Positions 26,401-53,715 of a stretch of DNA of 64,000 nucleotides are shown here, in pieces. A program made the position numbers and the translations under genes. Source of the stretch: a virus. The DNA is taken from IMG/VR virus record IMGVR_UViG_3300025668_000798, positions 16,364 through 80,363 of that record. One strand, 5' to 3'. Numbering within the stretch: position 1 is the first letter of the stretch; each line of letters begins with the position of its first letter. The notes below the pieces were generated by a model. The model was not told the DNA's origin. It did not search any database and saw nothing but the letters and a program-made list of their open reading frames with translations.

Positions 26401-29400
26401 TTTGTAGTATCTTCAACATTACTTAAAGTATAATTAGTGTATAGAACATTGTTGCCATCTACAGTTACGTTTACTCTTGATTTACGTAAATCTAGTGGCC
26501 ATTTAGTGTTGAAAGATTTTTTTGCACCTGTTCCAGTAAATGTTTCTACAGTTTTTAAATCTGTAAACACAAAATTTCCCGACACTCTATCAAACTTCAT
26601 TGTCATATGAGTTGATCGTACAGGACTATCGCCTAATATTGCTATTACTACTGGTAATTTGTAATCATCAGCAAAACTTCCATTTATAGTTATAGTAGGT
26701 TGTGAAGTATATACTGCTTCGTTATATGCAATATCAATTGATGTTAACTTATCTCCTGTTCTATAACCTTTGCCTGTTAGTGTAGGACCATTGCCTCCAG
26801 ATACAGTAACAACAGGTTGATTTAATAACCCATATCCAGCGTCATGTATTACCAATTCTTTGATTTTAAATTTATAATTATCTAACCAATTCTTTTGAGG
26901 ATATGTGTTTACAAACTCTCTATTGCCTACAACATTTGAATTGTAAAACTTTATTGTTTCTGTAACAATTTTATTTTGTATATCGTCATATCGAGGAGGC
27001 AAATCAAAGTCAGTTGTTAGTGTTTGAGAATTTTCTAAATTCTCATATGCACTAATGTACTCTCTGATTTTACTACTGTAAGGCTTGACTTCATTTATAA
27101 ACTCTTTGTAACTATCTAAATTATCTGATTTAAAATTAGTTCGCTGATCAAACATACCGATATTATGCTTTGCTGTTAGGAAACTTGTTTTGAAAATCCA
27201 ATCAACTGTCTGCTGCTCATACAGCGCATATCTTATAGCAGTAAATAATATATCATTAAATTTTATACTTAAATCGTCAATAAAAACTTTATCTTTAAGT
27301 GTTTGTAAAATAATACGTCTTTCATTTACTGGCTCAGTGTCGTAAACTAAATTATCAAATCCTACCTTATCGAATCCAAAATTAGTGTTTTGATATAATT
27401 TAGAACTAAATTGGATAGTGCCGTTTTGTCTACCGACTGTTTTATAATTTACAGTATAATCTACTTCTGTCTGCACATCAATTTTTTGTAGTAACAACCA
27501 GCCGCCTGTGCCAATGTCTTTTATTTTTACAACATCGCCTATAATATCATTAAGCCCATCTAATTGATAACTTCCATCAATTAAATAATTTATAGAAGTA
27601 TTTTCATCATAGCCAGTTGCATACCAATCGGCATAATTCCAAAAGTTTGCAACATTCCATTTTTGATATTGTACTCTATTATAATTTAATGAATAATCAT
27701 ATTCGTATAAAGCCCACTTACCATTTATTGTTGAATCATTAGTGACAAGGAAAGTAAATGGACGTACTGAAACATTTATACTCGAATAGTTCTTGCCTGT
27801 ATTAATAATTGTTGCACCGATGACTCTTCCAAGATTGTCTATTGTTGTTTGAATTTCAGCTTCTGTGCCATTGCCTGTGATAATAACTTTTGGTGCAGAT
27901 TTATATCCATACCCTTGTTCGTCTATAGACACACTTACTAATTTACCATCTAGTAATGTAGGAGTTATAACTGCTAATTTTGCATTAGCAACACCTATAT
28001 TTGCAATTTCGTCAAGTGTAGCAACTTCAACATCAAAAATACCTTCTAATAATCTAGGCTTGATATCATTCTTATCTAGGTCTTTGAGATCTTTAAAATC
28101 TGTAATTATTTGTTGACGCAAAATATAGTTGATACGTTCTATGGTTTGTTTTAGTGCTTCTAAGCTATTTCTAAATAATCCTTGTCTTGGACGATTTTCA
28201 ATACCGTACTTTTTACTTTCTCCTAATTCTAAATCAGGAACAGGTCTTAAGTTTTTATCATATCCAACTAAACTATCAATCCATTTTTCAATAAATGTGT
28301 CTGGAGGATTACTTCCTGCAAGTCCTTCGCTTAACAATTTATATTCAGTATGAATATTTCTATCGTTGATTTCACCTTTATATACATCAATATGTAATGC
28401 AATATCTTTGTCCTTAACAAAAGGTTGTACATTATGCAAAGCAAATTTATCAGTACTCAATGCACTCATAAACACATACCCAGCACTTTGAGGATCTGTA
28501 ATCAGTTGTTCTGCATCATATGAACTTATTTTTTTATTTGTGTTTGATAGTAATCTATTGTTTTGTACCCAGAAATAATATTTGGTGTTAAATGTTTCTG
28601 TTACTGCATTATATTTTCTACCTACACTATATTTAAAATCTCCATATTTACTAAAACCGCTTATACCTAATTCGATTCCTTCGTTTGTATCTGCTAATTC
28701 ATCATATTCGCTAGGTATATAATCACTTTCTACCCATTCATAAACTTGGGTATCACTATCAGGTAATAATTTATTCCAAAAACTAGTTTGTGTTTCTGCA
28801 TTACCTTGAAAAGGATTATACCATTTTGTTGATTCTGTGTTCCACCAGTATGTTCCTACATATTCATTTGCCCAAAAATCTTGGTTATTTGATGTTGTAG
28901 TGTCAACACTATAAGAAGCAGGATCAAATGCTAATTTTAAATCAATTGCTTCATCAGCTACTCCTGCAATTTTTCCTTGTATAGGATCTATTACATCTAA
29001 GAAAGTAACAATATCATTTGTATTTTTGTCAAACAAGAAAGCACGTTTAATTTTACTAATATCAGGCGTATCAATTTGCTCAGATAATTTTGTCCAACTA
29101 TAATTTTGCTTGTCTCTTTTAATATCTAATACTACACCATAATCAGCTGTGTATTCTAATCTTGGATAGCTAATATAAATGTGATTTGCATTTGTAAGTA
29201 ACACTGGAGTACTACTATTTTTTGTATCATAATTCCAATCCAATTCTTCAGCATACAAATAATTGTTGTTGAAATTTTGGAAAATATACACTGTTCCTGC
29301 ATTTGGAAATTTATTAAAAAACTTAGTTGTGTTACTATCAAACGATGTATCATTGTTGCGAACAATTGTTTGGTCAAACAATGTTGGTACAAATCTACTA

Positions 29401-32400
29401 CCATTTGCACTTGCAATTATAAGATTTTCTTCGCTAAAGTTTAAACTAATTCCAAATAATTCACCTGGTTCGCCTGTAGGAGGATATAATGTTTGATTTA
29501 AACCATACTCGTTGCCTGTATATCTGTATACAAAGACCGCTCCGTTATTTGTTCCTGTGTCATCATTTCTAATAGCATTAATAGCAATTGCATTACCATT
29601 TGCACTTACAGCAACTTCACTTCCAAACTCTTGTGCTAAATTTGCTGTTTCAATTGTTTCATAGTATGCATATCTATTATTAACTCTTCTGTACACACTT
29701 ACTACATTTGTGTTAAGTGTATCTTCGCCATTTACAACTAAGACCTCTCCGTTAACACTTACATCAAAACTAGTTGCAATTTTTTGTCCACCAGCAACAC
29801 CTAAATTGTCGCTTTCGTCGTTGAGTAGTTCGTTTTGTGGAGGTATATAACCTTTGTGGTCAACATACTGATCTAGTAATTCCCAATTAGTTTCGCTAAA
29901 TGACTGTGCTGGAAGATCTTTGTTAGCACGCCATAAATGACGATTGCCGTCTGCTCCGCCTGTTGTATTATACCATACAATTTCGCCTTGAATGTAATTT
30001 TCAGTTGGATTGAATGTTCCTCTGTAATTATCATCTCTACTATATTTCCAACTTCCATCAGTTGTGTCATTATCAAAAAAGTAGATTCTTCCTTCGGCTT
30101 CATTACTTGCAATGTAGAGTCTTAACACACCGTCAATATCTTTTCTACATTTTACTATTCTACCAAAATTGTCATCTGATACCGGCTCTGGGCTTAGAAT
30201 AGTGGTTACTAATTCGTATTCATTTCCAACATCTTCTTTTTTATACACACAAACAGCACCTAGTATACTGCCAGTTAAACTTCCATCAGGATCAACATCA
30301 ATTAAATTTGCACGTTCCCAATCTTGGCTCATTTTATTAATAGTGCTTACATCGCTACCATCAACATCAACTTTTGCTCTCCACAATGTTCCTCTGTCGT
30401 TTACTATTTCACCTGCGCTATAACTTGTACCAGGTAATATATTACCTTTATAACGTGTACGCAAGTTTGCAGCATTAGGAGCGCCTACGAATAAAAAATC
30501 ACCGCTTGGAGATAATGCAACGCTGGCTCCGAATTGGCTGTTGGTTCCAACTACACTAGTGTCGGCTTGATAGTTTTCAGGAGAACTAAAGTCGCCGCCG
30601 TCTCCGATACGAGTATATACTATTACTCTGCCGTTTGTATTTGGATCGCCTACTGCTAATTTTGTGTTTGTTTGATTTACTGCTAACGAATCACCAAAAT
30701 TAGTTACAAGTCCAGTTTGTGGATTGACTACTATGTCTTCAACATCATACACAGGTTTATTTTCTAACACAGCCCATTTGTTGTTGCCTATGTCATCTAT
30801 CCATGCTTTGTTACCAACTTGCACATCTGTGTTTCTTAAAATTGTATTGTAGTCATCAAGATTTGTAAATCTACGTGGTGCTACTTGAATTACAATCCCA
30901 GCACTACTGTCAGATAAATCTATATCTTCTGTAATATTTTCTTCAGTATAAAATTCTAATTCTTTATAACCTGTATAAATTACTTGTCTAAATCCATCTA
31001 ACTCATCGTTAATATTTGTCAATCCAATAATATCACCACTTTTTAGGTTGTGGTTGCTATCTAAACTGACTTTAAATCCAGTTAATGTTTTTGTAATGCG
31101 TTCAACTTGATAATTTGTTTTCTTAAATTCGTATACATTCCAAGACAGCTTATCATTCGTTACCCAAACGTACTGCCCTTGTTTGACTAAATTAATATCA
31201 AATCCTAAAAGTTGATCTACTCCACTTGTAATAAAATCGATTTGTGCAGGAGCAACATACCCAGCTGTTTTTGTAACTTCTTCATATTCAGCAAATGGAA
31301 ATAATTTGTTATTATAATTTGCAGGTTTAATGTTTATATCAGATCTTGGAACTTGATATATAAAATCAGATCTAGTTTTGTCTACACTAGATACAAGTTC
31401 AAAAGGCTGAGGAGTAAGTTTATATTTTGATTCATCTATAGTAATTTCAAATTCTTCAAAACTATCTGTGGCGCCGTATTGACCTGCTCTAATAGCCCAT
31501 TCTTCAAAAAATTCAATACTGTCTTTACCAGACGAACTAAGTTTATCAAACAATTTTGTAAGGACATTTTTAGTTCCTTTATCTTGTATCATTCCTTGAT
31601 AAAATTTATATTGACTTATTTCATCATTTATTATATTTTTAAGGTATTCACGCTTTTGATAACCAATAAGATGCTGTGCTAGTCTTTGTTGTTCAGTATC
31701 GAAATTATCTGTGTCTAAATCATAAAAATCAGCAAATTGAGAAGCTCTGTAATCAAAGTTTGGAATTAATTGATTCTTTGGAGTCTCTGTTAATACTGTC
31801 CAATTTGTTTGATCAAAAAATTCTCCACTAGTATGGCTTAGTGTTGCTGTGTAGTATTTGTCTTTGTAAGCAATTACATCGCCGATAATGTAATCAGAAA
31901 AACTCTTCCATTTAGTTGCTTTAGGTTCGTCAAATACAAACCCTGGAATGTTAAGTGTACCTGACCAATCAGCTGTCCTGTATCCTATTACTTTTAATCT
32001 TTCTTGTCTATACCCACTTGTTTCATTATAAATGGTATCTGCAAAAACAGTATCATTATCAATAACAATACAATGTTCTTTTTGAACTAGGAACAATCTA
32101 ACAAAATATACACCAGTGCCTTCGTCATTACTTGCTAGGCTAAATGTGTTATCTGTTTCACGCACTAAATTTACAAAATCCGTTTTGAACAATTTTCCAT
32201 CTTGATCTAAAATTTCATAATTGAATATGCTATCATATAAATTGTCTGGTAAGTAAAAATCACGTTTGAATACAATTTTGTTTGCACTAGGCGATAAACT
32301 AATTACACTTTGATCTCCCCAGTTTTGCGTAGTCCAAAACAAGAACTCTTTTGCAGCTAATCTAAAGTTTTCAACTATACCATATTTTGCATTATTATAA

Positions 32401-35400
32401 TCAAATCTAAATCCAAGATCTTGTAGTGCTTTATCGTACCCTAACAAAAAGTCTATTACATCTTGATATCTAGGTAAAACAGTTCCGTATTGCAAATAAG
32501 AAACAGAGGCAGAGAATCTTTTACTAAACCTACCTGCTCGTCCGCCGACTGTAGGCAACTCTGCAAGTTCTGAAAATTTAGCACTCTCAAACTCGTCAAC
32601 ACTAGTATGTGTTTCGTTTACTCTGTAAAACTTTTGCGAATATCTTACAATGCCACCTGCCACGTATAATTTTTCAGCTGCCCATTCTGCAAACTCTTCA
32701 CTTATTCCGCCTACAGTTATAAACGGATCGTTTGCACTTTCTATTACTTTATTGTATGTAAATTTAGGATTATTTCTATCGTATCCGTTTATTTTATATC
32801 CTGTAGAAACCTTTTCAATTACAACGCCGCTGTATGTAACAACATCAATTGGAGAACTAGTCTTTAGGAACAAATTATAATTTTCTTGCGGAGTAAAGAT
32901 ATCTCCTGAACTATTAGGTGTTTTACTATCTAAAACTAAATTTACTTTTTCTTTATCACTAAATCCTGCCAATCTAAAACTTAAATTATAACGTAAATTT
33001 GCAATATTATTTTTATAATCATCAAAAGACATATTGTTGTATTTGATATAATCTTTTACATAATTTAACAATCCTGCACTAGGATTTACAAAATCTATTT
33101 CTTTTGCTGATATAGCATTCTTATGATTGTATATTAAGTTACCAGATAAACTTCTAGAAATTTTTGAATAGTCGTATGCATAACCAAATACTTTTGCAGG
33201 TTTTAAAAGCAATAATGCATTCAATAAGCTAAACGGATATTCACTACTTCTACGCCAGGCAGTTTCAGCAGGTCCTTGATCGCCGAATTCAAATGTGTAT
33301 CCTTCTTGGCTTGAAAAACTAAAGTCTTTTGAAAATCCAGTTTCAAACGGACTTCTAATTCTTCCATTTTCGTCAGTTGGTATTTGGCTAGTTAAATTTG
33401 GTCTTGCAAATCTAATATCTTTTCTTATTAATTTGCCTGGCTCTCTAATGATTCCAGCTTCTAAATCTTTCCATAATGGTATATTATTGCTAGTATAAGG
33501 AGCAGGACCGTAAACAGTTTCCCACCAGCTAGGCTGAATCGAAAATCCTAACATTTTCCATGGTGTTAAATTTGGTGTATCGGTGTCGTAGGCATTATTG
33601 TAAACTGCACGCCAGAATCCTTCTAATTGCTTACCACTAATATCACTTGTATTTCTATAATTATAACTGAAACTGTCACTTATGTCAATATTTTTATTTT
33701 CATTAAAATCATAAACTTGTGCAACATTAGTCCAATTAATAAAATCAGCTATCATTATATTTTCAATATCATTACGAGCTAATCCTGTAGATCTAAATCT
33801 ACCAGGAATGTAATCAAATATATCAAATAATTCAGCATTATATCTAGTTTTTACATTGTTAAAAATACGTTTTTCTAATTCAATTAAGAGGTCGTCGCGG
33901 AAGTCGTTAAATGCTACTGTTCTGCTTCCGTCATGTCCTTGGATAACTTTAGTAGGTGTACTAAATGTATTATCGAGTATAATTTGCGGTTCGTATAAAG
34001 GATACAATCCTAACTTACTTGGCGTTGGAGGAACAAAACAACCATCTGTTGTTTCAAATTCATGTATATGAATTATATCATCATTTTCAACACCTGGAAT
34101 ATTTACAAATCCTTCATCGGTAAACATATAATCTTTTATATATGTTAGCTGGACATTATTGTTATAAACTAAAACTGCTTTATGATTTAATTTGTTTAGA
34201 TTAAATGCTGTAGTCAAAGGAAAATAAGGGTTTCCGGAATCTAATACAGTATACTCAATAATGTTTTTTGCACCAAACGGAACAACATCACTATCATAGT
34301 ATGCATCTAATCTAGTTTTACTTGTAGCAAATTGCGCTAATAAATAATCAACATGTTTTTCTACAGTGTTGTTATAGCCGTCATATGTTGCAAGTCTTAA
34401 AAATTCTCTTTTAAATTTACTGTATTCTTGTAATGCAAGTTTTATAGAGTTTACTATATTATGTTCTTTAGAAGTGAAATGATATAAAGGCAAACCTATA
34501 GGGCCTGCATGTGTTACAAATCTATCTCCGTATATTTCAATATTACCCTTATCACGCAGATTTCCTACACCAGGATGTATGCCTTCAAAATTTTCTATAT
34601 TTTCTACAATAGTTTGCACATGATCGTTTACTTCGCCTATTGTGAATTCTTTTACATCAAGGTTATTTGGATTACGTTCTAGATTGTATGCAGTTTCATA
34701 ATATGCATTATCGTTTTTATCAGCACTAGTATAACACTTAATAATTATTCTATCATCAGGTTCAATTGGAGTTGTTAGTGTTACTAGTACGTTTTCAGTA
34801 AGTGTTGCACCTAAGGTATAATCTATACCTTCTTTTAAAAACTTTCTATTTGTAAATATTTTTAATTTTAAGTCTGAGAGTGTGTTACTTTTTGTAAAAC
34901 AATCTATTTCAAAATTATTTGTTTGATTTGCTCCTTGCACATCAATGATTACAGCCTGCCTACTTTTTGTATAATGCTTTTTCCAAGCATTTTCGTATAA
35001 GGTTTCTTTATCATAACTATCGGTAATTTTCACAAAACCTTGACTAGCAAGTAAATCTATATTTTCCTCGTCTTGAATGTAGCTATCTTTTTGAGCTAAC
35101 AAATCAAACTCAAATACAATATCGCCTACGTTATCTATATTTTTATATGTTACAGGAAATCCTAATTCACTATCAAGTGCTCCTGTGCCTTCTTTGTAAG
35201 CAAAAATCTTATTGCCTGTAAACGTAGTGCTTTCGTAATACGTTGTATTACTATAACTTGTTTCTGTTTTATCAAATATATCAAATACAGGTGTTTGATT
35301 TACTGAAGTTTTTTCTTGTGCTTTTTTCCATTTAGTACCATCAAAGAAATATTGTTTACCTGCATTTACTTTGCCGTCTTTTATTAAAACAATATCATTT

Positions 35401-36992
35401 TCAGATGCTGTGCTATCAGTTGCTTCTATTAAACTAATTTGTGTTTTGTTTTGAAATTTTATAAAATTCACTACATAAATTTTATTATTCACTACAGTGT
35501 CTGAATCATTAGTAAACAAAATACGCATTCCGTCTACTAAATTTACATTGTCAATATTGTAACCTTCTTGTCCTTCGATAATAGAAAATATATCATTTGT
35601 CCAGTCATCTATTAGATCAATCGGATCTTTACATACAGTACCGTTATGATACATTTTGATGCCTGGCTTAAATTCAATAATTGGACGTTTTCCTCTACTG
35701 TTTGCAGGCAACGTATATTCTTGATTATTAATTTTTGCACTTTGTTCGATTACACTTATATGGAACCATCTGTTGTATCTTGCCCAAGGGTTTTTGTCTA
35801 CACTAGAACGATTACTTACAATATAATCTTTTACAGCAGGATAACCAAGTGCTGTACTCCAAGGCAATCTATCAAACCCATATACATCAAACGCTACATC
35901 TTCGTCGCCTAAAAGCAAATCTGCTGTGCTTAAATCATCAACAGAAATTAAAACAATTTCTTTGCCTACGCCGTCAACATAAAACACACCATCTTGATAT
36001 TTTTCAGGAATTACTGTTCCGGTAAATTGCACTTTCATGCCATTAGATAAATTCCACCCATCAGCAGTTGTGTAACTTACTTTGCCTAAAATTTCTTTAT
36101 CTATATCAATAAAACTATTTTCTTCAATAGTCGATATTCTTATAAGTCCGCTTGTATTAATATCTTCTTTACTAATATAAAAAAGTTCATCTGGAGCATT
36201 TTCAGGCACTGTAAACTCAATTACACCTTTGCTTACATAACCATCTGCATCTGCATCTGTCGTTACAATACCGTCTGTATATAATGTGCTTTCGTTTGTT
36301 ACACTATCTTCAAATGTAAGTCCAGGTAAAAATTCTCTACTTATTGCAAAAGCAAAAGGATTTCCTTCTGCATTTATTTCAAATCTATATGTCTGCCCTC
36401 TATACAAGTTAAGCAAAGGATTTCTAGTAAGTTTATCTGGTGTAAATAAATATGCAAAATTGTCTGTTTCTTCAACTACGTTGATTTTGTATGTGCTTTC
36501 GACATCACGCGAATTGCCAGGAACAGTTACAACTTGAGGACCGTTAGGTAACCAGTAATATTCACGAAAATTTGTAAATTTGTCAAAATCAATATGAGGG
36601 TTCCAAGAATATATTTCTTGTTCATTTAGTTTACTGTGATTGCTTGTGTTGCTATAAAAACTTTTTATTTGCCCTATATAGTCAATATAATCCTTATGAA
36701 AAGTAATATTGCCTAAATCGTCTCTGATGTTTACACTAGGATCTAATTGATAATTTGATCTTAGAGAATTTATTTCAGTAAGATATGTACTATTGTTTGC
36801 ATTTGCTTTTGCATTTTTTCTTCCAACAAATGCATTTATTTTTTCAACTGCACCCGAAGAAAATAATTGATCAATTGTAGAACTTGTAAGTTTTTCATTA
36901 GTACTTGTTCTAAAATAACGAGGTAAGAACCTACTACTTTTTTTACTGTTATCACCAACTGGAAATTCTGGTTGCTGGTCTTCGTATGCCAT
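23406..36992 (-). CDS. Giant (4528 aa) baseplate wedge/adhesin-like structural protein in the gp7 position
   Basis: Uninterrupted ORF directly after gp6. Contains FG-GAP-like repeats, CBM5/12-like modules, GYGY..AP.V.I.G repeats, F.GDG.T..F repeats and a C-terminal IEGERIEY...RRGTLGT. Confidence 0.75.
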   Translation of the reverse strand: MAYEDQQPEFPVGDNSKKSSRFLPRYFRTSTNEKLTSSTIDQLFSSGAVEKINAFVGRKNAKANANNSTYLTEINSLRSNYQLDPSVNIRDDLGNITFHKDYIDYIGQIKSFYSNTSNHSKLNEQEIYSWNPHIDFDKFTNFREYYWLPNGPQVVTVPGNSRDVESTYKINVVEETDNFAYLFTPDKLTRNPLLNLYRGQTYRFEINAEGNPFAFAISREFLPGLTFEDSVTNESTLYTDGIVTTDADADGYVSKGVIEFTVPENAPDELFYISKEDINTSGLIRISTIEENSFIDIDKEILGKVSYTTADGWNLSNGMKVQFTGTVIPEKYQDGVFYVDGVGKEIVLISVDDLSTADLLLGDEDVAFDVYGFDRLPWSTALGYPAVKDYIVSNRSSVDKNPWARYNRWFHISVIEQSAKINNQEYTLPANSRGKRPIIEFKPGIKMYHNGTVCKDPIDLIDDWTNDIFSIIEGQEGYNIDNVNLVDGMRILFTNDSDTVVNNKIYVVNFIKFQNKTQISLIEATDSTASENDIVLIKDGKVNAGKQYFFDGTKWKKAQEKTSVNQTPVFDIFDKTETSYSNTTYYESTTFTGNKIFAYKEGTGALDSELGFPVTYKNIDNVGDIVFEFDLLAQKDSYIQDEENIDLLASQGFVKITDSYDKETLYENAWKKHYTKSRQAVIIDVQGANQTNNFEIDCFTKSNTLSDLKLKIFTNRKFLKEGIDYTLGATLTENVLVTLTTPIEPDDRIIIKCYTSADKNDNAYYETAYNLERNPNNLDVKEFTIGEVNDHVQTIVENIENFEGIHPGVGNLRDKGNIEIYGDRFVTHAGPIGLPLYHFTSKEHNIVNSIKLALQEYSKFKREFLRLATYDGYNNTVEKHVDYLLAQFATSKTRLDAYYDSDVVPFGAKNIIEYTVLDSGNPYFPLTTAFNLNKLNHKAVLVYNNNVQLTYIKDYMFTDEGFVNIPGVENDDIIHIHEFETTDGCFVPPTPSKLGLYPLYEPQIILDNTFSTPTKVIQGHDGSRTVAFNDFRDDLLIELEKRIFNNVKTRYNAELFDIFDYIPGRFRSTGLARNDIENIMIADFINWTNVAQVYDFNENKNIDISDSFSYNYRNTSDISGKQLEGFWRAVYNNAYDTDTPNLTPWKMLGFSIQPSWWETVYGPAPYTSNNIPLWKDLEAGIIREPGKLIRKDIRFARPNLTSQIPTDENGRIRSPFETGFSKDFSFSSQEGYTFEFGDQGPAETAWRRSSEYPFSLLNALLLLKPAKVFGYAYDYSKISRSLSGNLIYNHKNAISAKEIDFVNPSAGLLNYVKDYIKYNNMSFDDYKNNIANLRYNLSFRLAGFSDKEKVNLVLDSKTPNSSGDIFTPQENYNLFLKTSSPIDVVTYSGVVIEKVSTGYKINGYDRNNPKFTYNKVIESANDPFITVGGISEEFAEWAAEKLYVAGGIVRYSQKFYRVNETHTSVDEFESAKFSELAELPTVGGRAGRFSKRFSASVSYLQYGTVLPRYQDVIDFLLGYDKALQDLGFRFDYNNAKYGIVENFRLAAKEFLFWTTQNWGDQSVISLSPSANKIVFKRDFYLPDNLYDSIFNYEILDQDGKLFKTDFVNLVRETDNTFSLASNDEGTGVYFVRLFLVQKEHCIVIDNDTVFADTIYNETSGYRQERLKVIGYRTADWSGTLNIPGFVFDEPKATKWKSFSDYIIGDVIAYKDKYYTATLSHTSGEFFDQTNWTVLTETPKNQLIPNFDYRASQFADFYDLDTDNFDTEQQRLAQHLIGYQKREYLKNIINDEISQYKFYQGMIQDKGTKNVLTKLFDKLSSSGKDSIEFFEEWAIRAGQYGATDSFEEFEITIDESKYKLTPQPFELVSSVDKTRSDFIYQVPRSDINIKPANYNNKLFPFAEYEEVTKTAGYVAPAQIDFITSGVDQLLGFDINLVKQGQYVWVTNDKLSWNVYEFKKTNYQVERITKTLTGFKVSLDSNHNLKSGDIIGLTNINDELDGFRQVIYTGYKELEFYTEENITEDIDLSDSSAGIVIQVAPRRFTNLDDYNTILRNTDVQVGNKAWIDDIGNNKWAVLENKPVYDVEDIVVNPQTGLVTNFGDSLAVNQTNTKLAVGDPNTNGRVIVYTRIGDGGDFSSPENYQADTSVVGTNSQFGASVALSPSGDFLFVGAPNAANLRTRYKGNILPGTSYSAGEIVNDRGTLWRAKVDVDGSDVSTINKMSQDWERANLIDVDPDGSLTGSILGAVCVYKKEDVGNEYELVTTILSPEPVSDDNFGRIVKCRKDIDGVLRLYIASNEAEGRIYFFDNDTTDGSWKYSRDDNYRGTFNPTENYIQGEIVWYNTTGGADGNRHLWRANKDLPAQSFSETNWELLDQYVDHKGYIPPQNELLNDESDNLGVAGGQKIATSFDVSVNGEVLVVNGEDTLNTNVVSVYRRVNNRYAYYETIETANLAQEFGSEVAVSANGNAIAINAIRNDDTGTNNGAVFVYRYTGNEYGLNQTLYPPTGEPGELFGISLNFSEENLIIASANGSRFVPTLFDQTIVRNNDTSFDSNTTKFFNKFPNAGTVYIFQNFNNNYLYAEELDWNYDTKNSSTPVLLTNANHIYISYPRLEYTADYGVVLDIKRDKQNYSWTKLSEQIDTPDISKIKRAFLFDKNTNDIVTFLDVIDPIQGKIAGVADEAIDLKLAFDPASYSVDTTTSNNQDFWANEYVGTYWWNTESTKWYNPFQGNAETQTSFWNKLLPDSDTQVYEWVESDYIPSEYDELADTNEGIELGISGFSKYGDFKYSVGRKYNAVTETFNTKYYFWVQNNRLLSNTNKKISSYDAEQLITDPQSAGYVFMSALSTDKFALHNVQPFVKDKDIALHIDVYKGEINDRNIHTEYKLLSEGLAGSNPPDTFIEKWIDSLVGYDKNLRPVPDLELGESKKYGIENRPRQGLFRNSLEALKQTIERINYILRQQIITDFKDLKDLDKNDIKPRLLEGIFDVEVATLDEIANIGVANAKLAVITPTLLDGKLVSVSIDEQGYGYKSAPKVIITGNGTEAEIQTTIDNLGRVIGATIINTGKNYSSINVSVRPFTFLVTNDSTINGKWALYEYDYSLNYNRVQYQKWNVANFWNYADWYATGYDENTSINYLIDGSYQLDGLNDIIGDVVKIKDIGTGGWLLLQKIDVQTEVDYTVNYKTVGRQNGTIQFSSKLYQNTNFGFDKVGFDNLVYDTEPVNERRIILQTLKDKVFIDDLSIKFNDILFTAIRYALYEQQTVDWIFKTSFLTAKHNIGMFDQRTNFKSDNLDSYKEFINEVKPYSSKIREYISAYENLENSQTLTTDFDLPPRYDDIQNKIVTETIKFYNSNVVGNREFVNTYPQKNWLDNYKFKIKELVIHDAGYGLLNQPVVTVSGGNGPTLTGKGYRTGDKLTSIDIAYNEAVYTSQPTITINGSFADDYKLPVVIAILGDSPVRSTHMTMKFDRVSGNFVFTDLKTVETFTGTGAKKSFNTKWPLDLRKSRVNVTVDGNNVLYTNYTLSNVEDTTKTYSRNLGNLLFETAPANNATIEITYYKDPAMLSAADRINAFYNPKEGMPGITKNEDGTINLGQLMTGLDYEGVNIESVDFSTDQGFDVGGFGIIPWDIFSESEDEIFVLDGSTLVFTLSKPLEDGVSYNIYKNNVRIDDPNFDGSSVIINKNALMNTIYGDGIQDTIPIDDTVPTAAGDIFIVRKETSDGSFEPADNVLDTELSGGGYDNTAKGLESGEITVDGDGFVTQTTSAGPEEVVPGQIVDTLDIQVKHKPADGQGIKTSYIYKTKSSILSYSIDMLPQSQQAVIVNINGQKVDDESYTIDYENNLLIFEDDSTIQDDMDLHILVIGNNGTDILESDTFIGDGATSIFVTGVKYTNPISSFVTINGVVQQPSFAYEIFETDATYKNEKCAAIRFGIPPRVGEVIGFSLYNNDTKSFSEITVDKSFIGDGVNYVYKFNNNTPFTEKPFTHKMLVKQGDKFLNAGYNIRHVLTNDRVYGIQTWQFGQPTKISNDDVLVLLNNKIIIDAVDYRWDAINSRIEFLNPLLGKVGDVLEIYVLGNGEYYFIDTVVDLTDMEDSTKQGLLHDEGDLISFVMEDSTQIFATVKSSVETDTGVTLTLNGYFKELKVKASENDVPLQLTGVKDEAYPAAIRIDNVRFVESENLTFKTVPAVNEKVEIITFSEHDVNNFDRLSFEVLYSPVISSSSPEYPTAISLTNGRIKLNQPAAGVNYVWVIQNNKLLRPSIDYELVSDNSIVNLFKKPNDNEIIEIIQFAATLTTTKYGFRIFKDMLNRVHYKRLNEKSVVKLSQPLNFYDQFISVEDTTNLPIPNRTTGKPGVVFIEGERIEYYVLEGNLLRQIRRGTLGTGVKSQYPAGTILMEQGERETIPYADKDLTQIFVSDGSTNIYTMDFDITSYNEIEVVVGGKKLRKPATQDFKVFNKTIDQDSPEADEIELPEFTINPDDNTITLRDDAPTGVRIVVQRKEGKLWTDDLSISDAKIARFVRAGTIKLSK
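24651..24725. repeat. 15-nt direct repeat (AGTACTGTCTTCCAT) with copies 60 nt apart, encoding MEDST twice
   Basis: Identical copies at 24651-24665 and 24711-24725. Confidence 0.85.
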
Positions 36993-48546: not shown

Positions 48547-49560
48547 TTGTTTAAGAAAGCGGCAGTGTTTACTGACATACACTTAGGTATGAAAGGCAAC
48601 TCTCGAGTCCATAACCAAGACTGCGAAGACTACATAGATTGGTATATTGAACAAGCCAAGGCACATAATTGCGAAACTGGCTTGTTCTGTGGCGACTGGC
48701 ACCATAATAGGAACAGTCTTAACCTTACAACTATGGATACAACCATTAGGCTGCTAGAAAAACTAGGTGCTGCCTTTGAAAACTTCTATATGTTTGCTGG
48801 TAACCACGACTTGTATTACAAAGACAAACGTGATGTCAGCTCTACGGAGTTTGCAAGACACATTCCGGGTATAACTGTCATAGAAGATATGCAAGTTATC
48901 GAAGATGTAGCATTGGTTCCGTGGCTTGTAGGCGACGAATGGAAGAAGATTGAGAAGTTAAAGGCAAAATACTTGTTTGGTCACTTCGAACTTCCATCGT
49001 TTTACATGAATGCTATGGTACAAATGCCAGACCATGGTGAATTAAGAAGCGAACACTTCAAGAATCAAGAGTATGTGTTCTCAGGCCACTTCCACAAGCG
49101 TCAGAAGCAGGGTAAGATCCACTATATTGGTAATGCTTTCCCGCATAACTATGCAGATGCTTGGGACGATGAACGTGGTATGATGATATTAGACCGTGAG
49201 AACAATGTAGAACCGTTGTACATCGACTGGTCAGAGTGTCCTAAGTACCGTACAGTTAAGTTATCCAAGCTAATTGACGAAAAAGATACGTTTATTAAAA
49301 GTAAAATGTACTTGCGTGTTAACCTAGACATTGATATTAGCTACGAGGAAGCTAGTTTCATTAAAGAAACGTTTATGGAACAGTATAATTGTAGAGAAAT
49401 CACTCTTATACCTCAAAAACACCTAGAAGAAATTACTACAGACTTAGACATTGAGCAATTTGAAAGCGTTGACCAGATTGTTAGCAACGAAATACTAGCA
49501 ATCGATAGTGATAACTTCAATAAGTCGGTGCTATTGGAAATATATAACGGATTAGAATAA
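48547..49560 (+). CDS. gp47: Recombination endonuclease subunit gp47 (Mre11/SbcD-like)
   Basis: Metallophosphoesterase motifs TDIHLG, CGDWHH, GNHD, GHFE and SGHFH. TTG start after GGAG. Confidence 0.93.
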   Translation: MFKKAAVFTDIHLGMKGNSRVHNQDCEDYIDWYIEQAKAHNCETGLFCGDWHHNRNSLNLTTMDTTIRLLEKLGAAFENFYMFAGNHDLYYKDKRDVSSTEFARHIPGITVIEDMQVIEDVALVPWLVGDEWKKIEKLKAKYLFGHFELPSFYMNAMVQMPDHGELRSEHFKNQEYVFSGHFHKRQKQGKIHYIGNAFPHNYADAWDDERGMMILDRENNVEPLYIDWSECPKYRTVKLSKLIDEKDTFIKSKMYLRVNLDIDISYEEASFIKETFMEQYNCREITLIPQKHLEEITTDLDIEQFESVDQIVSNEILAIDSDNFNKSVLLEIYNGLE

Positions 49561-49564
49561 CATT

Positions 49565-51340
49565 ATGATAAAGATCAAAGATCTCACAGTAAAGAACTTC
49601 ATGAGTGTGGGCAATGTTACCCAAGCAGTTGACTTTAACGAAGAACAACTAACACTAGTGCTAGGTGAGAACCTAGATCAGGGTGGCGACGACACTGGAT
49701 CACGCAACGGTACTGGTAAGACAACCATTATCAATGGATTAAGCTATGCATTATACGGCACAGCGTTAACAAATATCAAACGCAACAACCTTATTAATAA
49801 AACCAATAGCAAAGGCATGTTGGTTACTCTTAATTTTGAAAAAGGTGCTAACAAATATCGCATCGAGCGTGGCAGATCACCAAATATATTTAAGTTTTAT
49901 ATAAACGACCACGAACAAAAAGAAGAAGTTGACGAATCTCAAGGCGATAGTCGTAAAACACAAGAAAGTTTACAAGAACTACTCGGTATGAGTCACGATA
50001 TGTTCAAACATATCCTTGCTTTAAACACATATACCGAACCTTTCCTTAGTATGAGAGCAAACGACCAACGTGGCATCATTGAACAGCTACTTGGTATTAC
50101 TATCCTTACTGAAAAAGCAGGTTTACTTAAAGAAAAAGTAAAACAAACCAAGGATGCTATTACAGAAGAAACAATAAAAATTAATGCTATCGAAAGTGCA
50201 AACAAAAAAATTGAACAAAGTATTGAAACACTTGCTGGAAGACAACGTGCATGGCAATCAAAGAGTAAAACTGATGCTGCAAAGTTAGATGCAGCTATTA
50301 TTGAGTTAGAAAAACTTGACATTGACACAGAACTTGATGCACATGAAAAACTAACTAACTGGACTGAGTTGAATAATCGTATTACAAGCCTTAACAAAGA
50401 AAAAGCAACACTTGAAAGCGCACTAATGAGAGCAACCAAGAGTGTCGATAAGGCAGAAAAAGACATCACAGATTTAGATGATGCAACATGTTATACTTGT
50501 GGACAAGCTCTACACGAAGATAAAAAAGCAGAAATTGAATCAAGAAAGCAAAAAGAATTAAGTGATGCTGTTACATATCAGTCTGAAGTTGCAAATAAAT
50601 TAGAATCTACAATGGCACTTCTAAACGATATTGGAGACATTAACGGACGTCCTAATACATTTTATGAGAATGCAAAGGAAGCATATGAGCATAGAAACAA
50701 TGTAGATAATCTACGTGCAGCATTGATAAGTAAACAGCAAGAAGAAGATCCGTATCAAGCACAAATTGACGATATGACTAACACAGCGTTACAAGAAATA
50801 GATTGGCAACCTGTAAATGAGTTAACTAGTTTAAAAGATCATCAAGAGTTTCTTCTTAAACTATTAACAAACAAAGATAGTTTTATACGCAAAAAGATTA
50901 TAGATCAAAACTTAGCGTATCTAAACAATAGGCTCACACATTATCTAGATAGATTAGGCTTACCACATCAAGTTAAATTCCAAAACGATCTAACTGTTGA
51001 AATTACTCAATTAGGTCAAGACTTAGACTTTGATAACTTGAGCAGAGGCGAACGTAATAGGTTAATATTAGGAATGAGTTTTGCATTTAGAGACGTTTGG
51101 GAGTCATTGTACCAAGGTATCAATTTAATGTTTATTGACGAACTTATTGACAGTGGAATGGACACTGCTGGTGTTGAAAGTGCGTTACATGTTTTAAAGA
51201 AAATGGGTCGTGAACGCAACAAAAATGTTTTTCTTATTTCACACAAAGACGAGTTAGTAGGAAGAGTGAATCATGTACTAAAAGTAATCAAAGAGAACGG
51301 ATTTACATCATACGAAAACGATGTTGAAATTATAGAATGA
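49565..51340 (+). CDS. gp46: Recombination ATPase gp46 (Rad50/SbcC-like)
   Basis: KNFMSVG, Walker A NGTGKT, coiled coil with a CYTC zinc hook, signature LSRGE, Walker B FIDE and ISH. Confidence 0.95.
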   Translation: MIKIKDLTVKNFMSVGNVTQAVDFNEEQLTLVLGENLDQGGDDTGSRNGTGKTTIINGLSYALYGTALTNIKRNNLINKTNSKGMLVTLNFEKGANKYRIERGRSPNIFKFYINDHEQKEEVDESQGDSRKTQESLQELLGMSHDMFKHILALNTYTEPFLSMRANDQRGIIEQLLGITILTEKAGLLKEKVKQTKDAITEETIKINAIESANKKIEQSIETLAGRQRAWQSKSKTDAAKLDAAIIELEKLDIDTELDAHEKLTNWTELNNRITSLNKEKATLESALMRATKSVDKAEKDITDLDDATCYTCGQALHEDKKAEIESRKQKELSDAVTYQSEVANKLESTMALLNDIGDINGRPNTFYENAKEAYEHRNNVDNLRAALISKQQEEDPYQAQIDDMTNTALQEIDWQPVNELTSLKDHQEFLLKLLTNKDSFIRKKIIDQNLAYLNNRLTHYLDRLGLPHQVKFQNDLTVEITQLGQDLDFDNLSRGERNRLILGMSFAFRDVWESLYQGINLMFIDELIDSGMDTAGVESALHVLKKMGRERNKNVFLISHKDELVGRVNHVLKVIKENGFTSYENDVEIIE

Positions 51341-51558
51341 CAGATACACAAGACAAATTAGCACAAACATATCTAAAATATTTTGAGGCAAACGAAAAAT
51401 TTGAACGCAGGCCAAGCGAACGTACCAAGCGTTCTGCAAGAAGAGAACTTAGGCATTTAATAAACTTAGCAAAGCAAAGGCAAGAAGAAATAAAAAATAC
51501 TTACAACGAAGTGTTAGAAGACATTAGGCAAAATCAGAAATGGCAAAAGAAAAAATAA
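51337..51558 (+). CDS. Small basic helical protein, possibly Hc1/histone H1-like DNA-binding
   Basis: YFEANEKFERRPSERTKRSARRELRHLINLAKQR resembles the KF..GNK.A..RARK.L pattern. Confidence 0.5.
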   Translation: MTDTQDKLAQTYLKYFEANEKFERRPSERTKRSARRELRHLINLAKQRQEEIKNTYNEVLEDIRQNQKWQKKK

Positions 51559-51575
51559 TCAATGGTACATAATGT

Positions 51576-52001
51576 ATGCATTGGAAATACAAAGGAAAAA
51601 AAGTTGAATCGATACCAGATGAATACGAAGGCTTTGTATATCTAATAACAAACATTAAGACAAAACAAAAATACGTAGGCAAAAAGTTAGCAAAATTTAA
51701 AACAACTAAGCCACCATTAAAAGGCAGAAAAAACAAACGTCGAGGCTACAAAGAAAGCGATTGGCGTGAATACTGGGGAAGTTCAGACAGACTGAACGAA
51801 GATGTAAAAAACTTAGGCGAAAAAAATTTTACTCGTGAAATACTTTACTTCTGCAAAAGCAGAGCAGAAATGAGTTACATTGAAGCACGAGAACAATTTG
51901 ATAGGCGAGTATTAGAAACAGACGAATACTACAACGGTATCATCAATGTTAGAGTTGGTGGATCAAACAAACTACGCCAGGCACTACTAGAACACAAATA
52001 G
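51576..52001 (+). CDS. GIY-YIG endonuclease, T4 EndoII/DenA-like stand-alone type
   Basis: GFVYLITN...KYVGKK, SDWREYWGSS, FTREIL, SYIEAREQ and YYNG. Confidence 0.8.
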   Translation: MHWKYKGKKVESIPDEYEGFVYLITNIKTKQKYVGKKLAKFKTTKPPLKGRKNKRRGYKESDWREYWGSSDRLNEDVKNLGEKNFTREILYFCKSRAEMSYIEAREQFDRRVLETDEYYNGIINVRVGGSNKLRQALLEHK

Positions 52002-52029
52002 GCTATATATTGAGCTCTAAATAAAATCC

Positions 52030-52325
52030 AAGATCCAGCCGAGGTAATGCTCGTCGCCGGTGGTGTGGAATGCTCACGTGAAGGAACATACGATAGGTTT
52101 TAAAGGATAGTGGCTCTGAGAAAAAGCAACCACGTGGTAAGTATTTTCGCTTGTTAGGGAATTACTACCTTCCGTTGATATGACAAAGCTAGAGTAGGGG
52201 GATACAGGTCAACCGCCTCCGACAATGTAAATTGAATCTCTTTTAACAAGATGGCTGAAGCGACTCGAATAATGCGCTTACCATGTTTGCCCGGCAACGG
52301 GCAAATTATGACTTCACAATCTGAA
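52030..52325 (+). ncRNA. Candidate ~300-nt structured ncRNA of unknown class
   Basis: ORF-free and about 45% GC (132/290 by hand count). Contains two GNRA-capped hairpins and several long-range pairings, with TAAATA immediately upstream (52018-52023). Boundaries are approximate. Confidence 0.6.
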
Positions 52326-52336
52326 TAATACTAAAA

Positions 52337-52429
52337 GCATATGCATAGCATATGCCTTATTAATATTGTTATCAAGAACTTATAGTTCGTGTTGAGTGTA
52401 ACGAAAACACAGTTGAACTTTGTTCAACT
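52337..52429. repeat. Array of four adjacent inverted repeats
   Basis: GCATATGC-ata-GCATATGC, GAACT-tat-AGTTC, GTGTT-n12-AACAC and AGTTGAAC-ttt-GTTCAACT. Confidence 0.85.
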
Positions 52430-52470
52430 TATAATAACTAAATACATTATAATACTTGGAACAGTTCTAA

Positions 52471-53715
52471 ATGAAATTAAGTGATGTAACAAATAAAAGC
52501 AATTATATCTTAAAGGAATCACCTAGCGTTAGTATTCCTACAACTATAAGACAGATGGCTAATGGCTATATGTTTATAGCAGGCAATGATGTATTTAGAT
52601 TTACTGTAGGCCAAGGTGGTATTACTACTATGCGAGAAGCACAGAGAATGGCCACTGAATTAAAAGATAAATGGAGTCTTAGAGGACAACGTCCTGGTTT
52701 ACGAACTCAATTTGCAGATAATAAAGTAAATCCACGAATGCTTCCTGGTAATGCTAAACAGAGAGTTAGGCAAATAGGTGCAATCAACAGAGCATCCTTT
52801 CCAAAAACAACTGCCTTAATGAATAGCGGCTTTGGTAAAGTCTTTATGCGTTTGTTAAGAGCGTTCCTTGTAGAAGAACAAATTAGAAATAGTATACTTA
52901 TAACCATGGCAAATATCGAAGGTGAATTTGCTGCTGGTGAAATTACCGAAGCTGAATATGTAGATAAAATACAAGTTGCTTGGGGCATGTATGCTGTACA
53001 ACTTACAGCAATTATGTTGGCTACACTAAGAGCCGGTAAAAGCGGTGCAGCAATTATTAGAGGCATACGAACTATTGTAAGAAGCGGCCAACTTGCAGTA
53101 GGAGCAAGTGGCATTGGTACTGTTCCGGCAATATTAAGTGCTATTGCAACAGAAGCTGGATTTCAACTTGCAATATATTTAATTAGTAACCCTGCTGTAC
53201 AAAAAGCATTAGTTGATTGGATAGTTGCTTGGGGTCAAGAATCCTTGTTTGGTTCAATGCTTCAAGGTGTCGTTGAAGGAGCAGGAACTCTTCTAAACGG
53301 TGCAGCGTCAGCACTGAATAATCTTACCGGAGGGTTAGTTGGCAGCGACGATTTTTTTGCAGCCAGCGGCGCCGCAGAAGCAAGTGGTTTTACAGATCCT
53401 GGTGCAAGAGATATACCAGGTATAAACGGACAAGCATATGCTACATCGCAGTGGGCTAGACTTGTCTTCCAAGACATGATATTTCCTCCTGGAAGCAGTC
53501 TTGAAAGCAAACGAGTTCCTTATTATAACAGACGTCAGCGAGAAATGATGATGGCAGAAGACTTTGGATCACTTACTACTGCACCTGTCGCTGGCGGCAG
53601 AGGCGATGGTAATGCAGAAGTTGAAAGACGTAGACAAGACGGCAATCGAGCACCTAGCACAACAAGTGAACCTGGAATGCCAGTAAATCCAGATGCTACA
53701 CCTGGACCGCAATAA
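52471..53715 (+). CDS. Hypothetical late protein (possible internal head/ejection protein with hydrophobic helices)
   Basis: TAAATA at 52439-52444, N-terminus MKLSDV...ILKE and Ala/Gly-rich hydrophobic segments. Confidence 0.65.
   Translation: MKLSDVTNKSNYILKESPSVSIPTTIRQMANGYMFIAGNDVFRFTVGQGGITTMREAQRMATELKDKWSLRGQRPGLRTQFADNKVNPRMLPGNAKQRVRQIGAINRASFPKTTALMNSGFGKVFMRLLRAFLVEEQIRNSILITMANIEGEFAAGEITEAEYVDKIQVAWGMYAVQLTAIMLATLRAGKSGAAIIRGIRTIVRSGQLAVGASGIGTVPAILSAIATEAGFQLAIYLISNPAVQKALVDWIVAWGQESLFGSMLQGVVEGAGTLLNGAASALNNLTGGLVGSDDFFAASGAAEASGFTDPGARDIPGINGQAYATSQWARLVFQDMIFPPGSSLESKRVPYYNRRQREMMMAEDFGSLTTAPVAGGRGDGNAEVERRRQDGNRAPSTTSEPGMPVNPDATPGPQ

What the first reader, a model, noticed from the sequence alone, without database searches (positions are those of the whole stretch)
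52018..52330. Candidate large, multi-pseudoknotted ncRNA directly behind a GIY-YIG nuclease gene
Seen: this is the only long ORF-free gap in a tightly packed window. It is about 45% GC over 52031-52320, whereas the other spacers are very AT-rich, and it starts just after a TAAATA late-promoter box. Local hairpins are UUUGCCCG-GCAA-CGGGCAAA (52286-52305) and CAAU-GUAA-AUUG (52223-52234), both with GNRA loops, plus GUGG/CCAC (52110/52130), GGUA..GUAUUUUC/GGAAUUAC..UACC (52136-52169) and GGGGG/CCUCC (52197/52216). Long-range complements are GUGAAG..CAUA (52078-52090) with UAUG.CUUCAC (52307-52317), CUUGUUA (52150-56, a hairpin loop) with UAACAAG (52244-50), GUUGA (52174-78) with loop UCAAC (52209-13), CAGCC (52036-40) with GGCUG (52253-57), and GUCGC (52053-57) with GCGAC (52260-64). 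Several of these cross, which implies pseudoknots. GAAUAAU occurs twice (52267 and 52323), flanking the last domain. Established: GNRA loops and pseudoknots mark large functional RNAs, and some nucleases (IscB, TnpB) use an adjacent RNA. Inference: this is an unclassified phage RNA. It could be a ribozyme, a scaffold, a replication primer or, more speculatively, a partner or guide for the 141-aa GIY-YIG protein.
Basis: partly seen in the sequence, partly recalled or inferred. Interest (0 to 1): 0.85.

Follow-up and report, generated by a model that had tools for sequence, protein, structure and literature searches.

The report
Twin-box structured RNA in giant phage
The gene-free stretch behind a small nuclease gene of this uncultured giant marine T4-like phage encodes a real, knotted RNA of about 350 bases that carries the same 7-letter word twice; what the RNA does is unknown, and the nuclease looks like a neighbour, not a partner.

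Summary
The observation largely holds. Window 52002-52470 is the longest ORF-free gap. About 52002-52362 (+ strand) encodes a conserved structured RNA that ends in an intrinsic terminator.

- **Structure:** on 27 distinct window-type homologues, 97.9% of cells pair. 22 pairs change on both sides, against 9.8±1.4 in shuffles and 2-6 in slid controls. One pseudoknot (52150-56 with 52244-50) has compensatory support.
two are refuted and one is inconclusive. The TAAATA "late promoter" is not conserved.
- **Twin boxes:** the two GAAUAAU words (52267-73, 52323-29) are identical to each other in 176 of 185 viral loci, in at least 16 sequence versions. No complementary partner was found in the RNA or its flanks.
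- **Distribution:** more than 250 uncultured aquatic phage contigs carry the RNA, and none of 50,697 GenBank phage records does.
- **Nuclease link:** the RNA follows the GIY-YIG gene in 52 of 52 unbiased loci. Elsewhere it follows an unrelated PD-(D/E)XK nuclease, lies head-to-head with GIY-YIG behind its own sigma-70-like promoter, or has no nuclease nearby. A guide or partner role is unlikely.
- **Rfam:** the window has no match. A sister subtype begins with the orphan motif Polynucleobacter-1 (RF01718).

Function is unknown. My best guess is a trans-acting scaffold that presents two identical pairing boxes. This scan has noted the same family before on other genomes.

The parts
51576..52001 (+). 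Neighbouring gene: 141-aa single-domain GIY-YIG nuclease (SegE-type catalytic domain only)
   Evidence: Pfam PF19835, E=1.3e-32, covering residues 3-123. PHROG 447. Its stop codon lies 10 nt before helix P1 of the RNA.
52002..52362 (+). Twin-box structured RNA. The 5' end is approximate; the 3' end is the terminator plus its U-rich tail.
   Evidence: No ORF in any frame. Conserved in 27 distinct window-type sequences. Covariation statistics. G-U/A-U/G-C alternation fits the + strand only.
52011..52076 (+). 5' module: P1 (52011-15 with 52072-76) encloses P2 (52027-30 with 52066-69) and P2a/b (52035-43 with 50-60)
   Evidence: P1 has 3 of 5 pairs with changes on both sides (UA/CG/GC, AU/GC, GC/AU). 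P2 and P2a have one such pair each.
52110..52133 (+). P3 hairpin GUGG/CCAC with a conserved loop CUCUGAGAAAAAGCAA
   Evidence: Two of 4 pairs are compensatory (GC/UA 17:10; UA/GC/CG 15:10:2).
52136..52169 (+). P4 hairpin. Its loop (52150-56) forms pseudoknot PK1.
   Evidence: 11 pairs, 4 with changes on both sides, 98.7% paired.
52244..52250 (+). 3' strand of pseudoknot PK1 (UAACAAG), pairing with the P4 loop CUUGUUA at 52150-56
   Evidence: 99.5% paired. UA changes to AU in L227 and to GC in L242 at the same pair.
52174..52213 (+). Candidate second pseudoknot: GUUGA (52174-78) with the P6 loop UCAAC (52209-13)
   Evidence: Invariant in 27 of 27 sequences. In subtype L078 the pair reads GUUGU/AUAAC, which is one compensatory and one wobble change. 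Support is weak.
52191..52241 (+). P5 (52191-94 with 52238-41) encloses P6 (52197-201 with 52216-20) and the variable hairpin P7 (52223-34), where relatives carry insertions of up to about 45 nt
   Evidence: P5 has 2 of 4 pairs compensatory, P6 is invariant, and P7 has 4 of 4 compensatory. A covariance model built from the other subtype aligns its full length to 52191-52332 (17.7 bits, E=0.058).
52267..52273 (+). Box 1 (GAAUAAU), inside a loop closed by AUGG (52251-54) with CCAU (52281-84)
   Evidence: Read directly. Co-variation with box 2.
52286..52305 (+). Hairpin PB: 8 bp with a GCAA tetraloop
   Evidence: 99.5% paired, with one compensatory CG to UA change. In the other subtype it is a 10-bp stem with many A-U/G-U and U-G/C-G alternations.
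52323..52329 (+). Box 2 (GAAUAAU), single-stranded, 7 nt before the terminator
   Evidence: Read directly. Identical to box 1 in 176 of 185 loci.
52337..52355 (+). Intrinsic terminator hairpin followed by CUUAUUAAUAUU
   Evidence: Terminator scan. The stem sequence differs between lineages but always pairs.
52389..52429 (+). Two further conserved hairpins after the RNA: H2 (52389-93 with 52406-10, 12-nt loop GAGUGUAACGAA) and H3 (52411-18 with 52422-29). It is unclear whether they belong to the RNA.
   Evidence: The H2 stem covaries (GUGUU/AACAC, AGUUU/AAACU, AUUGAC/GUCAAU) around a conserved loop GAGCGNNAGCGA in both subtypes. A TATAAATA-like late promoter follows in several relatives.

Best explanation
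This is a stand-alone non-coding RNA gene of the 'twin-box' family carried by uncultured aquatic T4-like giant phages.

Shown:
- A + strand transcript of about 350 nt folds into a multi-helix, pseudoknotted scaffold.
- Its 5' module is exchangeable between lineages and its 3' module is very conserved.
- It ends at an intrinsic terminator.
- It displays two single-stranded 7-nt boxes that are kept identical to each other while their sequence drifts between phages.
- The RNA does not depend on the GIY-YIG gene.

Inferred: the scaffold acts in trans and uses both boxes to base-pair with one kind of nucleic-acid partner, either two sites or two molecules. That partner lies outside the DNA held here, elsewhere in the giant genome or in the host. 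This would explain why both boxes must change together.

Inferred: the nuclease genes beside the RNA are neighbours. They may be homing-type genes drawn to a conserved RNA gene, or occupants of a shared hot spot.
For: - **Structure:** 97.9% of cells pair. 22 pairs change on both sides, against 9.8±1.4 in shuffles and 2-6 in slid controls.
- **Strand:** G-U alternates with A-U and G-C on the + strand only, and a terminator follows.
- **Conserved 3' module:** 58 of 173 columns are invariant across 77 distinct sequences, while the upstream protein falls to 52% identity.
- **Boxes:** identical in 176 of 185 loci with 12 box types, plus 4 more types in metagenomes. Close relatives show the same A/G change in both boxes and no third change. 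Box 1 lies in a loop and box 2 in the 3' tail just before the terminator, both single-stranded in the supported fold.
- **Independence from its neighbours:** in L315 the RNA lies antiparallel to every neighbouring gene, behind its own TTGACT-17-TATATA promoter. L117 and L142 belong to a different phage type.
Against: - No partner sequence was found, so trans pairing is inference only.
- Metatranscriptome contigs cover the GIY-YIG gene but not the RNA. Depth is only 3-4x, so this neither supports nor refutes transcription.
- The window has no recognisable promoter in front of the RNA, so here it may be only the 3' end of the nuclease mRNA.
- A 250-nt pseudoknotted scaffold is far more than a base-pairing sRNA needs.
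- The fold energy is not better than shuffles.
- The tight adjacency to nuclease genes of two families could reflect function rather than neighbourhood.
Confidence: 0.45

Rival explanations
1. The RNA is a cofactor, guide or regulator of the small nuclease encoded directly upstream (GIY-YIG here, PD-(D/E)XK elsewhere). The boxes would specify the DNA or RNA sites on which the enzyme acts.
For: - In 52 of 52 loci found through the GIY-YIG protein alone, the RNA follows the gene.
- Nearly all loci found through RNA motifs alone have GIY-YIG directly upstream.
- Where GIY-YIG is missing, an unrelated nuclease (PF24608, E=1e-25 to 1e-30) sits in the same place on the same strand.
- In L323 the nuclease-RNA pair is inverted as a unit relative to gp46.
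- The GIY-YIG protein has no DNA-binding domain.
Against: - Two unrelated folds would have to use the same RNA.
- In L315 and L319 the RNA and GIY-YIG are head-to-head.
- L117 and L142 have no nuclease next to the RNA.
- Melnitz, whose GIY-YIG protein is 68% identical, has no RNA behind the gene.
- gp46 and the 73-aa gene are equally syntenic in 157 of 159 loci, so adjacency may be inherited gene order.
- 7-nt boxes are too short to guide, and no complementary target is enriched.
Confidence: 0.12
2. The RNA is a cis-acting 3' untranslated element of the early/middle gp47-gp46-nuclease operon. It would protect the mRNA 3' end or control termination and read-through at the boundary with the late structural genes.
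For: - No sigma-70-type promoter lies in front of the RNA in the window.
- The fold begins 10 nt after the stop codon.
- It ends in a terminator, which is followed by two more conserved hairpins and then late-promoter-like TATAAATA boxes in relatives.
Against: - In L315 and L319 the RNA is antiparallel to all neighbouring genes and has its own promoter.
- In L117 and L142 it sits in a different phage type upstream of terminase genes.
- Its size, pseudoknots and near-invariant 3' module exceed any known 3' stabiliser.
- This model does not explain why the two boxes stay identical.
Confidence: 0.12
3. The RNA is catalytic or serves as a template. Either it is cut (by itself or by an RNA-guided activity) at the same position in both boxes, releasing the roughly 56-nt hairpin segment, or a polymerase copies the segment and jumps between the identical boxes, as in template jumping on DRT2 or telomerase RNAs.
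For: - Identity of two direct repeats with no complementary partner is what equivalent cleavage sites, or donor and acceptor sites for a strand jump, would require.
- Each box lies in a roughly 29-nt imperfect repeat followed by a stable hairpin.
- The strongly conserved core with pseudoknots and a GNRA loop is ribozyme-like.
Against: - No known self-cleaving class matches.
- No reverse transcriptase was seen in the window's ORFs near the RNA or in the 8 metagenome loci whose ORFs were listed. Most of the other loci were not surveyed for one.
- Box spacing of 53-68 nt shows no 3-periodicity, so a repeated coding product is excluded.
- No shortened one-box form was noticed among the loci collected. 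This was not checked systematically.
Confidence: 0.1
4. The locus works at the DNA level, for example as a replication origin or recombination hot spot whose transcript primes synthesis through an R-loop. The boxes would be iteron-like protein sites.
For: - It lies in a short + strand gene block between minus-strand structural genes, next to recombination genes gp46/47 and baseplate genes.
- T4 oriE, oriF and oriG lie near such strand switches, and oriE has direct repeats (PMC3016281).
- Nuclease and resolvase-like genes cluster here.
Against: - Covariation keeps G-U pairs on one strand, which points to RNA folding and not to duplex DNA.
- Protein-bound iterons would not need to change in concert so often.
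- T4 R-loop origins need no elaborate RNA fold.
Confidence: 0.07

Closest known systems
Polynucleobacter-1 RNA motif (Rfam RF01718; Weinberg et al. 2010, PMC2864571)
   Same: An orphan structured RNA from freshwater and estuarine sequences. In sister locus L078 the full 141-nt model matches (71.8 bits, gathering 37) directly after the GIY-YIG stop codon. It is followed there by the same P4/P6-like region, a GCAA hairpin, twin boxes (AGAUAAU twice) and a terminator, as in the window.
   Different: The window's 5' module does not match the model even at E<=10, and neither does the commonest subtype. The Rfam model covers only the first third of one subtype and omits the conserved 3' module and the boxes. 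The paper lists the motif as probably cis-regulatory.
Large 'ornate' orphan RNAs often carried by phages and prophages: GOLLD (RF01998), ROOL (RF03087), OLE, raiA
   Same: Large size, pseudoknots, GNRA loops, carriage by phages and unknown function. A conserved half joined to a lineage-variable half is, from my own knowledge, also described for GOLLD.
   Different: No Rfam match to any of them. This RNA is smaller, about 350 nt. None of those families is known to carry two co-evolving identical boxes.
Guide RNAs of transposon nucleases (IscB omega-RNA/HEARO, TnpB reRNA)
   Same: A structured RNA of a few hundred nt encoded next to a small nuclease gene.
   Different: There is no IscB or TnpB-type protein and no transposon ends. 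There is no 15-20-nt variable guide at an RNA end. The RNA keeps its place next to two unrelated nucleases, or next to none.
Free-standing homing endonuclease genes beside conserved genes in T4-type phages (Seg and Mob genes, for example SegB in the tRNA cluster)
   Same: A small GIY-YIG gene is wedged next to a highly conserved RNA gene. It is replaced by another nuclease family in some genomes, and the RNA part nearest the nuclease is mosaic.
   Different: The GIY-YIG gene is fixed in this clade (157 of 159 loci) rather than sporadic, and it lacks the DNA-binding domain of Seg proteins. No cleavage site is known.

Membership tests
Rfam Polynucleobacter-1 (RF01718) | Covariance-model score at or above the gathering score of 37 bits | tested here: not met
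   The window has no hit at gathering or at E<=10 over 51400-52600. Sister subtype L078 scores 71.8 bits.
Rfam Polynucleobacter-1 (RF01718) | Homology of the window RNA with a bona fide member outside the modelled part | tested here: inconclusive
   By eye, L078 shares the GCAA hairpin, box context, P6-like hairpin and terminator. The model R1, built from the other subtype, did not find L078 at E<=1.
Twin-box phage RNA (unpublished; named in this scan) | Two identical 7-nt boxes, preceded by CUC and UCU, flanking a stable hairpin with a GNRA-type loop | tested here: met
   Boxes at 52267-73 and 52323-29 flank hairpin 52286-305. The same layout occurs in all subtypes.
Twin-box phage RNA (unpublished; named in this scan) | Conserved 3' module alignable to that of the commonest subtype | tested here: met
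   Model R1 aligns its full length to 52191-52332 (17.7 bits, E=0.058). It does the same at the matching place in 8 of 8 window-type loci. Each score is weak on its own.
Twin-box phage RNA (unpublished; named in this scan) | Intrinsic terminator directly after box 2 | tested here: met
OMEGA-type guide RNA (IscB/TnpB) | Adjacent IscB or TnpB nuclease, and a long variable guide segment | tested here: not met
   The neighbour is a GIY-YIG catalytic domain only. The only variable elements are 7 nt. HEARO does not match.
tmRNA (including two-piece forms known from related marine myophages, PMC9004378) | tRNA-like domain plus tag reading frame, detected by ARAGORN or Rfam | tested here: not met
   ARAGORN finds nothing in the window. 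There is no Rfam tmRNA hit. In Melnitz the tmRNA gene lies elsewhere.
Group I intron with a GIY-YIG homing gene | Intron core match, and a host gene split into two exons | tested here: not met
   No Rfam hit. The flanking ORFs are complete, and a terminator follows the RNA.
Type III antitoxin RNA (ToxI-like) | Tandem near-identical repeats of about 35-45 nt next to a ToxN-type toxin gene | tested here: not met
   Only 7 nt are identical between the two units, and the rest of each unit is about 70% alike. No ToxN-type gene was seen; the PADLOC defence library was not searched.
T4-type late promoter driving the RNA | Conserved TATAAATA at a fixed distance upstream | tested here: not met
   52016-52025 reads TCTAAATAAA and varies among relatives (TCTGAAAAAA, TCTAATTAAA). 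It lies inside the fold, between P1 and P2.

The most novel reading that the evidence does not exclude
The twin boxes are programmable recognition sites of an RNA that works in DNA transactions together with interchangeable small nucleases or resolvases. For example, the RNA might bridge two DNA molecules at the same 7-bp sequence, or serve as donor and acceptor sites for a copying enzyme that jumps between them. That would be a new kind of RNA-directed recombination or synthesis module in giant phages.
Probability: 0.08. Interest if true: 0.9.

Novelty: new variant of a known kind. Interest (0 to 1): 0.62.

Why it matters
This is a large RNA that is more conserved than the proteins around it. 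It is present in hundreds of uncultured aquatic giant-phage contigs and in no cultured phage record searched.

It carries an unusual evolutionary signature: two direct repeats that change in concert with no complementary partner in sight. That signature gives a concrete handle for experiments, such as changing one box, both boxes, or looking for what binds them.

The work also shows that an orphan Rfam motif, Polynucleobacter-1, is only the first third of one subtype of a much larger family.

If the boxes turn out to be programmable recognition elements, the family could be a new RNA-directed system. If not, it still adds a well-defined member to the short list of large phage RNAs of unknown function.

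Tried and rejected
- **Rfam:** no family reached the gathering score in the window, and none had E<=10 across the region.
- **tRNA and tmRNA:** ARAGORN found nothing.
- **Coding:** all six frames are closed. Short ORFs that start or end in the boxes are not conserved, because linker lengths vary out of frame.
- **Fold energy:** z = +0.40 on the + strand and -0.47 on the - strand, which is uninformative.
- **GenBank phages:** blastn found no match for the window RNA or for the commonest subtype.
- **A partner for the boxes:**
  - No 7-bp complement, with G-U allowed, at a conserved place inside the RNA.
  - No column that covaries in a complementary way.
  - No enrichment of the box or its complement in the flanks or in the window (15 matches against 20 expected).
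  - No conserved complementary site within 3.5 kb upstream or 2.5 kb downstream.
- **Repeat unit as a concatenated reading frame:** box spacing shows no 3-periodicity.
- **Expression:** contigs of four metatranscriptome runs cover the GIY-YIG gene at 3-4x with exact matches, reaching 52041, but not the RNA. These are contigs at low depth, so this is no evidence either way.
- **Solved structures:** a PDB sequence search with the GIY-YIG protein gave nothing useful.
- **Small zinc-ribbon-like protein:** it lies between GIY-YIG and the RNA in 7 loci, has no family, and is absent from the window.
- **Kin search:** not possible for a virus record.
- **Fremin et al. 2023 catalogue (PMC10690425):** I could not check whether this RNA is among its candidates, because no supplement is held.
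- **Bacterial genomic islands:** I could not test for occurrences there. The only three hits in prokaryote assemblies look like phage contigs binned into MAGs.

Full report
**What is in the window.** The window is part of an 80-kb IMG/VR viral record that is about 22% complete. It has T4-type genes: gp47 and gp46 at 48547-51340, and a baseplate hub gene after the locus. The best cultured relatives of gp46 are jumbo phages at about 50% identity. The stretch 52002-52470 is the longest gap without an ORF and is closed in all six frames. Its GC content is 0.43-0.44, against 0.27-0.29 just downstream. It follows a 141-aa protein that consists only of a SegE-type GIY-YIG catalytic domain.

**The gap is conserved widely.**
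- Searching viral contigs with the GIY-YIG protein gave more than 598 matches. All 52 of the retained loci with at least 900 nt downstream carry a homologous non-coding element.
A window-type motif returned 46 more, and a hairpin motif returned 96 metagenome contigs.
- None of 50,697 GenBank phage records matches.
- Three hits in prokaryote assemblies are MAG contigs with the same phage gene order.

**Structure.**
- I aligned 27 distinct window-type sequences (A1) and specified 68 pairs in 11 helices. 97.9% of cells pair. 22 pairs change on both sides, against 9.8±1.4 in shuffles and 2-6 when the partners are slid.
- Supported helices are P1, P2, P2a, P3, P4, P5, the variable hairpin P7, hairpin PB and the terminator. 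P6 never varies.
- The pseudoknot between the P4 loop (52150-56) and 52244-50 has two independent compensatory changes.
In subtype L078 it reads GUUGU/AUAAC.
- GUCGC/GCGAC and CAGCC/GGCUG fail. GUGAAG/CUUCAC has six uncompensated mismatches.
- The single-sequence energy is unremarkable.

**Strand and ends.** Many pairs alternate between A-U, G-U and G-C in a way that works only on the + strand. A terminator whose stem differs between lineages follows box 2. The window has no sigma-70-like promoter in front of the RNA. The TAAATA box is not conserved. In L315, however, the RNA lies antiparallel to all its neighbours behind TTGACT-17-TATATA. It can therefore be a gene of its own.

**Modularity.**
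- The 3' module is nearly invariant: 58 of 173 columns across 77 distinct sequences. The upstream protein meanwhile drops to 52% identity.
- The 5' half comes in at least three architectures.
- A covariance model of the commonest subtype's 3' module finds the window at 52191-52332, and finds all eight window-type loci tested at the matching place. Each score is weak.
- Many contigs end inside the 5' half. This fits an assembly graph that branches where a conserved segment meets a mosaic one.

**Twin boxes.**
- GAAUAAU at 52267-73 and 52323-29 are two copies of one word. Across loci the two copies are identical in 176 of 185 cases with 12 word types. Metagenomes add four more types.
- The pattern is NNN-U-R-A-N.
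- RNAs that are 91-96% identical differ by the same A/G change in both copies and by nothing else nearby.
- Each box sits in a roughly 29-nt imperfect repeat and is followed by a linker and a stable hairpin.
- I found no complementary partner in the RNA, the flanks or the window.
- Box spacing of 53-68 nt has no codon periodicity.

**Relation to the nuclease.**
- In this clade gp46, the 73-aa gene, GIY-YIG and the RNA are syntenic in 157 of 159 loci. Adjacency alone is therefore weak evidence of partnership.
- In 11 metagenome loci that have enough upstream sequence, no GIY-YIG gene lies upstream on the RNA's strand. In six of the eight examined, a PD-(D/E)XK endonuclease takes its place on the same strand (PF24608, confirmed by Pfam for three). 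The other two are L315 and L319.
- In L323 the nuclease-RNA pair is inverted relative to gp46.
- In L315 and L319, GIY-YIG and the RNA are head-to-head.
- L117 and L142 are another phage type, with the RNA two genes upstream of terminase and no nuclease beside it.
- Melnitz, the isolate with the closest GIY-YIG homologue, has only a late promoter behind the gene.
- I read the nucleases as neighbours. They may be homing-type genes attracted to a conserved RNA gene, but this is not shown.

**Known families.** Nothing in Rfam matches the window. Following a lead from earlier notes of this scan, I scanned relatives. The first 141 nt of the L078 element are Polynucleobacter-1 (71.8 bits). That motif is an orphan listed for Burkholderiales and fresh water or estuary samples. 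The commonest subtype does not match it. The catalogued motif is therefore one of several exchangeable 5' modules.

**Mechanism.** Two direct repeats that stay identical without a cis partner point to one of two things: a shared trans partner, or equivalent sites for cutting or strand jumping. I favour a trans-acting scaffold with two pairing boxes (0.45). The alternatives are a nuclease partner (0.12), a cis-acting 3' element (0.12), a ribozyme or template (0.10), and an origin-type DNA element (0.07).

**Expression.** Contigs of four metatranscriptome runs were uninformative.

**Verdict.** This is a real RNA of unknown function, and its family is only partly catalogued. This scan has already noted the same family on many other genomes. 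My analysis reached the same description independently before I read those notes.

Noticed in passing
window 52389-52429; the same place in most related loci: After the terminator come two more conserved hairpins. The first has a covarying 5-6-bp stem around a conserved 12-nt loop (GAGCGNNAGCGA; GAGUGUAACGAA in the window). In several relatives a TATAAATA-like late promoter follows. This may be a separate regulatory element for the downstream late gene.
   Followed up: partly
window 51450-51907 (+ strand): TAGGCR occurs five times within 460 nt, inside the 73-aa gene and the GIY-YIG gene. Across the window it occurs 59 times against 40±6 expected, mostly on the coding strand. AGGCA-type words also fill the non-coding spacers between GIY-YIG and the RNA in loci such as L098, L121, L130 and L158.
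   Followed up: partly
L098:1885-2067, L134:3242-3523, L204:2417-2644, L142:13734-13961, also L044, L121, L171: A small protein of 60-93 aa with a motif GPHxGKxxCxxC...W(L/I)PK lies directly upstream of the RNA in 7 loci, including one with no nuclease. It has no Pfam or PHROG family, and no homologue is in the window.
   Followed up: partly
loci L009, L024, L032, L037, L040, L042, L048-L050, L053, L061, L064, L074: Many viral contigs end 75-190 nt after the GIY-YIG stop codon, inside the variable 5' half of the RNA. These are probably assembly breaks where mosaic sequence meets conserved sequence.
   Followed up: no
window 23406-36992 (- strand): A single ORF of 4528 aa lies among the structural genes.
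   Followed up: no
L315:3399-3983 (+), L319:4926-5510 (+): A 194-aa protein with no Pfam or PHROG family sits between the gp46 cluster and the RNA in the head-to-head arrangement.
   Followed up: no
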